Below the pieces are notes generated by a model. It had not been told where the DNA came from. It did not search any database and worked only from the letters and a program-made list of their open reading frames with translations. Position numbers and translations under genes: made by a program. Shown here in pieces: positions 7,701 to 10,700 of a stretch of DNA of 20,000 nucleotides. The stretch spans positions 82,469-102,468 of the forward strand of contig NW_014040531.1 of assembly GCF_001186125.1 (NCBI RefSeq), written 5' to 3'. Position 1 is the stretch's first letter, and each line of letters opens with the position of its first letter. Source of the DNA: Sphaeroforma arctica JP610. Lineage: Eukaryota.

Positions 7701-10700
7701 TACATGCATGTACATATACATATACAAATATATATATGCAAGTATATATTGTCCTAGACACGCTCAGCAGATATGCAAAACGAAAAGTACATCATCCACC
7801 ACCAGTGTCGTATGGAGCACACATACCAGGGCGCATAGTGGAAATCATTGTGGCCAAACCCGCAGCTTTCGCCAAATTTGAGATAATCTCTCGACCCTCG
7901 ACACGGGCGTAGTAGTCCTCATCAATCAGCAGTGGTTCAATCACCACCAGAATCTGTTGATATGAGATAGGATGTGAGTGCATGGGTTGTGCACGGCAGA
8001 AAACAAACTGCGCTGCAAAGAGACTCGAGATATTGGAAAGATGCGCACATGGACCAGAGGCTGATCATGGCTCACCAAATTGCATCGCATATGGAACTGA
8101 TGAACGCCAGCACAAAATCTGCAAGAGGGTCTGCACCATGTGCCATGCAAGAGATTGAATCCCCCACTAGCCATTCAAAACAGGCAATGACATCACAAAG
8201 TGTATCTCGCATGCGCTTAACAGGGAGTATAATCAGATCATAGGTATGCCGCGCCGAGGGTCTAAGATTCTACACAATCTAACTACTGCACACACCTTAT
8301 GTACATAGGGCCGCACGAGATCGTCAAGCTTGTAAAGGATACGATCGATGACTTTGACCAGCAAATGTCGCTCTTGATCTTCCAAGGAAGGCGACATCAG
8401 CAACGGCAGAATCTGGAGGAGAGTCGAGGTTCAGTCGATGAATCAATTGTCAAAGAAATATATGACACCGAGTATTGATCTGACGAGGATGTATATATGT
8501 AAATTAAATCGATACCTATCCTTGTTGAGCTTATCGTTTATATTACTTCCCCTAACGTTCAAGTGCATCCGCAAGTAGTCTCATAGCACTTCGCGGAGCA
8601 TTTCTCTTCGTATCAGCTATAACCAGTCATCACTCACCGCACATCTAGATAACATACAAATACGAATCCATGCAGTATATATCTCACCCGCCAAAACGAT
8701 TGGTATGCCTCATGAGCACGACAACAGTCCATACCTGATTGAATAAGGGGCCCGCACCGAACTCGCGTGCTTTGTCGGTGATGTGTCGGAGTGCACTCTT
8801 GCGCATCGGGGGAGTGCCATTCTTGATCTTCAGCAGAAGTTTCATGATACGACGTTCCTTTGCCTCGGTAGGCGACAGCTCTTCTCCGTCGACTTCGTTG
8901 AGAAGCTTTCCAAAATACTGAGTGATGGAAGTGATAAAAGTCAAAGATGTTAGGTCACGACAACTGAGTGATGGAAGTGATAACAGTCAAAGATGTTAGG
9001 TCACGACAACTGAGTGATGGAAGTGATAACAGTCAAAGATGTTAGGTCACGACTACTATACTCGGCGATATATAAGTTCACGCTTGTTACACAGCTCTGT
9101 CGGTATTCATTGCACTGGCTGGCACTCTGTTGCGCACCGATCACGAGGTAAGGGGAGGAGACTGCACAAACTTGAAGCGTAAAGTTCATACGAACAAAGA
9201 TTACATTGGCGTTCGTGCCTGCGACTACACATACCTATGTAATGATACACATACGGCGGGTATATAAATTTGAAGGCTTATATGTACGAATGTTTATATA
9301 CAAACACGGGAAAGTAAAGCCTCAGACACGTACGCCTTGATATCCATATACATCTACTGCTCGCAAAATCCATTACAACATACCTGTGTATCATCAGGCT
9401 TCAGCCCTGGCAAACTCTGGTCGGTGGGTTGGGCTTCCTCCAGTCCATAATCCTTTGCGGTCATGGCGGTGCCATCCTCAGCCATCATGAATCTGCGTGC
9501 ACGGTGGGGTGTAAGAGTGATCCATATCTTTAGTGCTCGACGTTGTAAGGAATTGTTGATTGTAATTGTAGTGGATATGGTTATATTGGAAGATAGATAC
9601 GATTGGTACAGCGATATCGCGCTAAGATGCAAACACCAAAGAGCACCAATATATATATTCAAAATATATGTATCGGACATTCAGAATCCACCTCCTACGA
9701 ACCATACACATTTAACGTCTCCACTCAAAACATCGGCACTAAAGACAAGCTTAGTCGCTTCAAGGAGTAGAGGTAAGGATAGGTAGATACCCCATACAAA
9801 CCATACACATTTAACGTCGCCACTCAAAACATCGGCACTAAAGACAAGCTTAGCCGCTTCAAGGAGTAGAGGGAAGGATAGGTAGATACCCCATACAAAC
9901 CATACACATTTAACGTCTCCACTCAAAACATCGGCACTAAAGACAAGCTTAGCCGCTTCAAGGAGTAGAAGTAATGATAGGTAGACTACCCTTACAAACC
10001 ATACACATTTAACGTCTCCACTCAAAACATCGGCACTACAGATTAGCTTTTCAAGGAGTAGGGGTAGGGTTATAGCGTTCAACTTGCGCCCAGAGGTCAA
10101 TAGCGGCATATATGTAGCGGGAGCTTTGAAATCAAGCCTTCAGCCGAATCAGTGTCACGAAACAGTCCATCCATGCAGATAATGTGGCACGAAAAGAGAA
10201 AAATGCATGATTGAAACCTACAGGTATATTTTCTAGCTTCATACGAATTTGCCTTCCATATCTATAAAATTAACTCTCAGCCGGGAATACGGTATGGCCT
10301 CACGATTCACTCCCACAACACAAATCAACGGCACCCGTAGATGTACAACTACACAGTCCACTCCATTGCATCGGTTGCTCTCATACCCGTTGTCGGCTCG
10401 AGGAGTGGGGGTGGCGGTAATCTTGCGCCCTGGCGTCATCAGCGGTACATAGCCCGCTGGGGCATCCAGAATAACATAGCCTTCAGCCGGGAACATAGCG
10501 TCCAGGTCTTCGTCTGTGAGGGGTCGGTTGCGGTCATCCAGTTCTCTCTCCATACGGGCCTGGTATAACCGAGAGTGGTAGAAGAAGGTCCAGTGGTTAG
10601 CTATGGTATGATGCGTAGAGAGAGGAGTGTGTGCCGCGTCGTGGTGATTGATCAAATCCGGTTGTGCGTTACAGTCTATTGGAAAGTAACGCGTGATAGA

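What the first reader, a model, noticed from the sequence alone, without database searches (positions are those of the whole stretch)
9690..10146. Exon 8|9 ghost copy whose junction portion was re-amplified into a 99-bp minisatellite
Seen: 10146->10051 is a clear decayed exon 8 copy. It has exact AGCCTTCAGCCG and CTTGCGCCC anchors, reads [17 protein letters not shown] versus [17 protein letters not shown], and has ACCCCTACTCCTTGA versus ACCCCCACTCCTCGA. It runs directly into the 99-bp units, which keep CTACTCCTTGA and end in TATGGTTTG or TATGGTTCGTAGGAGG, resembling exon 9 TATGGACTGGAGGAAG. The units also carry donor-like GTATGG motifs. Inference: an old coding-derived copy followed by recent tandem amplification.
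Basis: partly seen in the sequence, partly recalled or inferred. Interest (0 to 1): 0.7.

Follow-up and report, generated by a model that had tools for sequence, protein, structure and literature searches.

The report
Dead exon echo inside SF3B1 intron
An intron of a core splicing-factor gene holds a broken copy of the neighbouring exon whose tail is repeated about four times; it is spliced out of the assembled transcripts, likely arose by local DNA duplication rather than from a spliced RNA, and looks like a known kind of intron clutter.

Summary
The window is a minus-strand SF3B1 gene (23 exons, 1220 codons, no stop). Intron 8 (10386-9493) holds a real decayed copy of exon 8's 3' part (about 10156-10051): tblastn E 5e-4, best of 1012 exon-intron pairs, with two frameshifts and a stop. 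Its last ~25 nt sit in each unit of a roughly four-copy 99-bp array. The exon 9 claim mostly fails: exon 9 scores joint lowest of 23 exons against the array, and only one unit gives a borderline anchored signal. What follows the exon 8 tail fits the unspliced start of intron 8 somewhat better (CCGATG at the identical offset). The GTATGG 'donors' score below all 23 real donors. Spliced contigs from 4 of 4 runs join exon 8 to exon 9. Best reading: old local DNA duplication of the exon-intron boundary, later re-amplified, like amphioxus 'mirages'; the scan noted this kind before in two urchin genes. One extra: the intron's first 16 nt match exon 8 nt 21-36 in phase (1 of 506 pairs), so the donor, perhaps the intron, may come from an in-frame 153-nt duplication.

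The parts
10387..10559 (-). SF3B1 exon 8 (source of the copy; Pfam SF3b1 PF08920)
   Evidence: (E 9e-24)
9493..10386 (-). SF3B1 intron 8, 894 nt, GT-AG, phase 2
   Evidence: joint 9492/10387 in contigs of 4 of 4 runs
9384..9492 (-). SF3B1 exon 9
10051..10156 (-). Decayed copy ('ghost') of exon 8 nt ~58-162; -4 and +8 indels, CGA>TGA
9686..10075 (-). 99-bp tandem array, about 4 units; each holds ~25 nt of the ghost's end plus ~75 nt of following sequence; first unit 6 nt shorter
9719..9736 (-). Example (unit 4) of the CCGATG..GAGTGGA block matching intron 8 nt 13-30 at offsets 24/34 from the anchor vs 24/35 in the real exon 8-intron 8 junction; same block in all units
   Evidence: statistic chosen after seeing the match
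10153..10177 (-). Echo of intron 8 nt 17-45 immediately upstream of the ghost (suggestive)
   Evidence: p 0.0004-0.002 vs 2446 intron windows; highest of 22 intron starts but intron 10's start is within 1 point
10371..10386 (-). First 16 nt of intron 8, 13 of 16 identical to exon 8 nt 21-36 (10539-10524), in the intron's own phase
   Evidence: best of 506 intron-start x exon pairs; shared 8-mer occurs only at these two places
10277..10287 (-). Exact 11-mer of exon 8 nt 67-77; possible remnant of a further copy
   Evidence: 0.064 expected per 894 nt; surrounding stretch not significant
9605..9705 (-).
   Evidence: ghost vs 9759-9600 p 0.015 (shuffles), 0.03 (intron windows); exon 8 itself vs same stretch p 0.5-0.6; no nhmmer hit
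9701..9999 (-). Best cryptic donors of the array (GT at 9999, 9900, 9801: 7.0 bits; 9702: 5.5 bits); not seen used

Best explanation
Intron 8 of SF3B1 holds a frameshifted, stop-containing copy of exon 8's 3' part that likely arose by an old head-to-tail DNA duplication of the exon-intron boundary (about exon 8 nt 57 to the first 30-45 nt of the intron), and a 99-bp piece spanning its tail was likely amplified later by slippage or unequal crossing-over. Shown: the copy, its breaks, the array, the age order (75% vs 91-96% identity), and splicing straight from exon 8 to exon 9. Inferred: the DNA (unspliced) origin and the amplification mechanism. The copy has no acceptor of its own and its copied donor has decayed, so the spliceosome uses the original donor and the whole thing is removed; it would be neutral intron growth with no function.
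For: Ghost real. After the anchor the units carry CCGATG at offset 24 exactly as the real exon 8-intron 8 junction, then GAGTGG at 34 vs 35; exact-run test p 0.001-0.006 at band 1, 0.004-0.02 at band 2, 0.016-0.05 at band 3, and at bands 1-2 above all 21 other intron starts in 8 of 8 rows. 11 of 30 nt match intron 8's start vs 4-5 of 30 for exon 9 in units 2-4. A second echo of the intron start sits just upstream of the ghost. Over 98 nt a tandem-junction model (exon tail, intron start, exon 8 again) scores above the spliced model in 4 of 4 parameter sets, p 0.011-0.032 vs 0.35-0.59 against 1405 intron places. Outer units are the most diverged, as for mirage arrays (PMC3087553, passages). Other arrays abut acceptors in the same gene: 46-bp at 0 nt, 32-bp at 8 nt. 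Contigs of 4 of 4 runs join across the intron. No good open exon can be cut from the intron: best summed splice score -2.1 of 16 cassette and -0.9 of 21 replacement candidates.
Against: The exact-run statistic and the junction model were built after seeing the alignment, so their p values are optimistic. Ordinary tests do not support the intron-start match: local alignment p about 0.5, anchored alignment p 0.08-0.59 and 0.07-0.33, pair-HMM p 0.5-0.65, strict local score 11 with intron 6 at 12 and introns 11 and 21 at 11. The ghost starts about 230 nt into the intron, not directly behind the copied intron start, so a further copy or insertion is needed, and that stretch is not significantly exon-8-like. 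The spliced continuation keeps a borderline signal for unit 4.
Confidence: 0.62

Rival explanations
1. Intron birth or donor shift by exon duplication: exon 8 nt 21-173 (153 nt, 51 codons) was duplicated in frame one or more times, the first copy's GGATGA became the donor GTATGA, and the copies became intronic. The ghost, the intron start and the unit interiors would all be exon 8 copies.
For: Intron nt 1-16 match exon 8 nt 21-36 at 13 of 16, the top of 506 pairs; first 47 nt vs exon nt 21-67 p 0.005-0.06. Nt 21 is a third codon position, the intron's own phase. Ghost differences fall 6/2/11 on codon positions 1/2/3, and two changes go towards the family consensus (S/T in 10 of 16, L in 14 of 16 homologues). 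6 of 6 distant loci have no intron at this position.
Against: The intron's 3' end does not match exon 8's end (417 of 506 pairs score as well; p 0.05-0.13). The whole-intron array model is not supported outside the first 47 nt (p 0.23-0.99). pN/pS 0.43 fits a copy dead on arrival (P 0.05-0.14); the invariant P is lost. The six loci are 49-63% identical over the query and mostly intron-poor here. The match was found post hoc (about four end-by-exon tests).
Confidence: 0.2
2. One reading: a spliced exon 8|9 piece (cDNA-templated repair, or a copy older than the intron) was inserted into intron 8 and its junction was amplified.
For: TATGG at offset 54 (units 2-4) vs 55 (mRNA); unit 4 anchored p 0.005-0.06 vs coding nulls, 0.016 in 2 of 4 settings vs 60 shuffles; exact-run p 0.009-0.07 for unit 4. 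Exon 9's 5' part is poorly conserved among homologues, so old similarity would fade fast.
Against: Local p 0.23-0.64; joint lowest of 23 exons; 4-6 of 30 at the expected junction; unit 1, contiguous with the ghost, p 0.17-0.43; p 0.12-0.59 over 98 nt; the same motif aligns as well to the ghost's own start. No other exon ghost on the gene's strand passes strict tests.
Confidence: 0.12
3. A once-functional mutually exclusive exon 8b that has since died.
For: Third-position bias 6/2/11 and mostly conservative changes. The best AG inside the intron (exon would start at 10217, 4.7 bits) lies 73 nt before the GCTGAAGGC block, against 72 nt in exon 8 (read).
Against: The 60 nt after that AG show no visible likeness to exon 8's highly conserved 5' part (alignments start at 10156); codon bias is within the dead-on-arrival expectation; no open replacement exon covers the ghost among the 10 best of 21.
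Confidence: 0.06

Closest known systems
Amphioxus 'mirages' (minisatellite-like tandem duplications of exon-intron boundaries; Adh3, globins BflGb6/9, TnC, PGBD5; PMC3087553, PMC3902484, passages read)
   Same: Tandem units of similar size (10-160 bp reported; 99 bp here) holding an exon end plus adjoining sequence, inner units most alike, normal splicing undisturbed, proposed source of new introns.
   Different: Here the amplified boundary belongs to an already decayed copy about 310 nt from the live exon, not to the live exon; the intron part of the unit is only weakly recognisable; the host is another eukaryote of unidentified lineage.
Unannotated tandem exon duplicates in introns (PMC9013439, passages read)
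   Same: Same-strand exon homologue in the neighbouring intron, identity within the detected range (57% and up).
   Different: Partial, frameshifted, no acceptor; no sign of mutually exclusive use.
[quoted passage not shown]
   Same: Intron 5' end resembles the upstream exon; a donor recruited from exon-derived sequence would parallel the potato case.
   Different: No AGGT at the junction (GG|AT), 3' end not exon-like, no close outgroup without the intron.
Processed (cDNA-derived) exon-junction insert (from general knowledge)
   Same: Coding-derived, same strand.
   Different: No demonstrable exon-exon junction.

Membership tests
Mirage-type boundary repeat | Head-to-tail tandem units inside an intron | tested here: met
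Mirage-type boundary repeat | Unit contains exon-end sequence | tested here: met
   anchor in all units; ungapped score 22 for unit 4 vs 0.064 expected per 894 nt
Mirage-type boundary repeat | Unit continues into the adjoining intron sequence | tested here: inconclusive
   exact-run p 0.001-0.05, post hoc; standard alignments and pair-HMM not significant
Mirage-type boundary repeat | Normal splicing undisturbed | tested here: met
   contigs of 4 of 4 runs join 9492 to 10387; rare forms not visible in contigs
Mirage-type boundary repeat | Copy-number instability between haplotypes | not tested
   no DNA-run or second-haplotype data obtained
Processed (spliced) copy | Exon 8 end joined directly to exon 9 start | tested here: not met
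   4-6 of 30 nt; local p 0.23-0.64; residual borderline signal further in
Mutually exclusive tandem exon | Open frame in the source exon's phase | tested here: not met
   -4 and +8 indels, CGA>TGA
Mutually exclusive tandem exon | Own acceptor and donor giving an open exon | tested here: not met
   best candidate -0.9 bits summed, not over the ghost
Mutually exclusive tandem exon | Junction reads | tested here: inconclusive
   only assembled contigs available; all skip it
[quoted passage not shown] | Intron ends derive from flanking exon sequence | tested here: inconclusive
   5' end matches exon 8 nt 21-36 (1 of 506); 3' end does not; 5' end vs exon 9 start p 0.12-0.34
[quoted passage not shown] | Intron absent in close outgroups | not testable with these tools
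   only six distant loci found, none with the intron

The most novel reading that the evidence does not exclude
SF3B1 intron 8 (or at least its donor) was born from an in-frame 153-nt tandem duplication of the conserved SF3b1-domain exon: the copy was translated for a time, one G>T change made the donor, and the intron still carries the fossil copies that later seeded a minisatellite - a readable record of intron birth in a core spliceosome gene.
Probability: 0.2. Interest if true: 0.5.

Novelty: new member of a known kind. Interest (0 to 1): 0.24.

Why it matters
As best read it is a small, neutral example of introns growing by local duplication of splice boundaries, with three such arrays at or near junctions in one gene. 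It matters only modestly: it would extend mirage-type repeats to another eukaryote and shows that donor-like motifs in such arrays are ignored. If the intron-birth reading holds it would be one of few cases where a gained intron's source sequence is still legible (PMC4974935 says proven cases are few), and it makes a direct test available in related genomes.

Tried and rejected
Lenient alignment scoring (2,-1.5,-4,-1) lets chance alignments sprawl: exon 20 vs intron 8 reverse scored 74.5 against the ghost's 76, so significance rests on the strict tests. An apparent exon 3 ghost in introns 7 and 9 did not survive strict scoring. The 152-codon open frame 10139-9684 is expected: 54% of shuffled units have an open frame, and Pfam gave nothing above a cut-off. 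An in-frame cassette 10137-9703 would end in TG+A, a stop, on joining exon 9 (read). No Rfam match in 9400-10600; the intron folds no better than shuffles (z +1.5); no exact match of a 21-nt unit motif in viral contigs. nhmmer with --max returned nothing (uninformative); with open filters the best further copy had E 3.4. One search's codon counts used a wrong coordinate and were replaced; the coding null had one exon start off by 1-2 nt. No run is on record as RNA; the four laid are spliced contigs, which cannot show rare inclusion. No whole genome is held, so copies of the unit elsewhere are untested. Copy number in DNA runs was not obtained. A search for close relatives with exon 7 found none, so the lineage is unidentified; a paper search on a guessed taxon is not used. 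Two papers asked for by recalled DOI were not held. The scan's place look-up was empty.

Full report
Setting. The window holds a minus-strand SF3B1 gene: 23 exons from 18792 to 318 give 1220 codons without a stop and all 22 introns are GT-AG. Exon 8 (10559-10387) matches Pfam SF3b1 at E 9e-24. The lineage is not identified: the best protein hit is 75% identical and has no species name, and no genome is held.

The ghost is real. Exon 8 aligns with 10156-10051. Lenient scoring also gives a chance alignment nearly the same score (74.5 vs 76), so I repeated the test strictly: score 21 against a next best of 16 among 1012 pairs, tblastn E 4.9e-4 (next 0.52), blastn E 0.002 (next 0.011). Three gap-free blocks are 56 of 75 nt identical, separated by a 4-nt deletion and an 8-nt insertion, and end in CGA>TGA. 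Differences fall 6/2/11 on the codon positions, pN/pS 0.43; a copy dead from the start, beside an exon changing only at silent sites, gives this with P 0.05-0.14. Two ghost residues match the family better than the live exon (T where 10 of 16 homologues have S/T; L as in 14 of 16), but a P found in 16 of 16 is lost. The copy is therefore old; whether it was ever translated is open.

The array is real. TRF finds 99 bp x 3.6 at 9696-10049; counting the first unit, which is 6 nt shorter, it spans about 10075-9686. Units 2 and 3 share 95 of 99 nt, unit 4 shares 90, unit 1 77-78 of 93. Each carries about 25 nt of the ghost's end. It is younger than the ghost or was homogenised since.

Exon 9 claim. 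Local alignment of units to exon 9 gives p 0.23-0.64; strict score 7, joint lowest of 23 exons; 4-6 of 30 nt at the expected junction. In its favour, TATGG sits at offset 54 from the anchor in units 2-4 and 55 in the mRNA, and unit 4 gives anchored p 0.005-0.06 against coding places and 0.03-0.17 against intron places over 70 nt; unit 1 gives nothing, and over 98 nt p is 0.12-0.59. The same motif aligns with the ghost's own start (p 0.015-0.03). I rate a spliced origin at about 12%.

What follows the exon tail instead. MAFFT placed exon 8 plus the start of intron 8 against units 2-4 without a gap up to CCGATG: offset 24 in both, then GAGTGG at 34 vs 35. An exact-run statistic, chosen after seeing this, gives p 0.001-0.05 depending on band, against 0.07-0.34 for the spliced model except unit 4 at bands 2-3 (0.009-0.05). 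Conventional alignments and a pair-HMM support neither continuation firmly. Independently, 10177-10153 just upstream of the ghost echoes intron 8 nt 17-45 (p 0.0004-0.002), though intron 10's start fits almost as well. A tandem-junction model outscores the spliced one in 4 of 4 settings. Together this favours, without proving, a DNA-level head-to-tail duplication of the donor boundary.

Function. A splice-site matrix from the gene's own sites scores the six GTATGG motifs 0.8-0.9 bits, below all 23 real donors (2.4-13.5, leave-one-out); the array's best donors are other sites (7.0 and 5.5 bits). Of 16 open cassette and 21 open replacement candidates none sums above -0.9 bits. Contigs splice straight across but cannot show rare forms. 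The long open frame through the array is what a 99-bp period gives by chance. No Rfam match or special fold.

A lead beyond the finding. The first 16 nt of intron 8 match exon 8 nt 21-36 at 13 of 16, the best of 506 intron-start x exon pairs; the shared 8-mer occurs only at these two places in the window. Nt 21-173 is 153 nt, a whole number of codons. This is what an in-frame duplication with a donor made from GGATGA would leave. But the intron's 3' end is not exon-like and the rest of the intron does not fit an exon 8 array; the six loci lacking this intron are distant. About 20%.

Comparison. The scan's word look-up returned two urchin reports of the same kind and the term 'mirage'; I checked it in PMC3087553 and PMC3902484 (passages): tandem repeats of exon-intron boundaries, 10-160 bp, homogenised inside, not disturbing splicing, proposed to create introns. 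This works like a mirage; strict membership is inconclusive because the intron part of the unit is weakly supported and the amplified boundary is that of a dead copy. Intronic exon duplicates are common (PMC9013439, passages); intron gain by tandem duplication is a recognised mechanism (PMC3443670, PMC4974935, passages). I make no claim that this locus is absent from print: I ran no search for it by gene and organism. No supplements were read.

Verdict. Observation partly confirmed; exon 8|9 junction not supported; most likely a neutral local duplication with later amplification. New member of a known kind, interest 0.24.

Noticed in passing
window 16200-18050, + strand, inside SF3B1 intron 1 (18643-14644): THOC1-like coding sequence on the opposite strand (PF11957, E 1e-13 for 16642-16956) with further open pieces in other frames (two of them gave no Pfam hit): likely a nested, spliced antisense gene.
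   Followed up: partly
window 8917-9057: 46-bp x 3.1 array that triplicates the branch-point-like stretch and AG acceptor of exon 10; contigs of 4 of 4 runs use only the last AG.
   Followed up: partly
window 11609-11771 and 6356-6847: 32-bp x 5.1 array ending 8 nt from exon 7's acceptor; 35-bp x 14 array in intron 13, 128 nt from exon 14.
   Followed up: no
window 12425-12454: Inverted match of exon 4 in intron 5, 23 of 30 nt, blastn E 0.011; chance or a small inverted copy.
   Followed up: no
window 8731-12199, - strand: TGGACT occurs 6 times on the minus strand, all in this stretch and 4 of them within 30 nt of the donors of introns 6, 8 and 10, against once on the plus strand.
   Followed up: partly
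window 9459, 10488: Run X20 differs from the window by a few letters in exons 7-10 (8 in about 640 nt): another strain or a very close relative.
   Followed up: no
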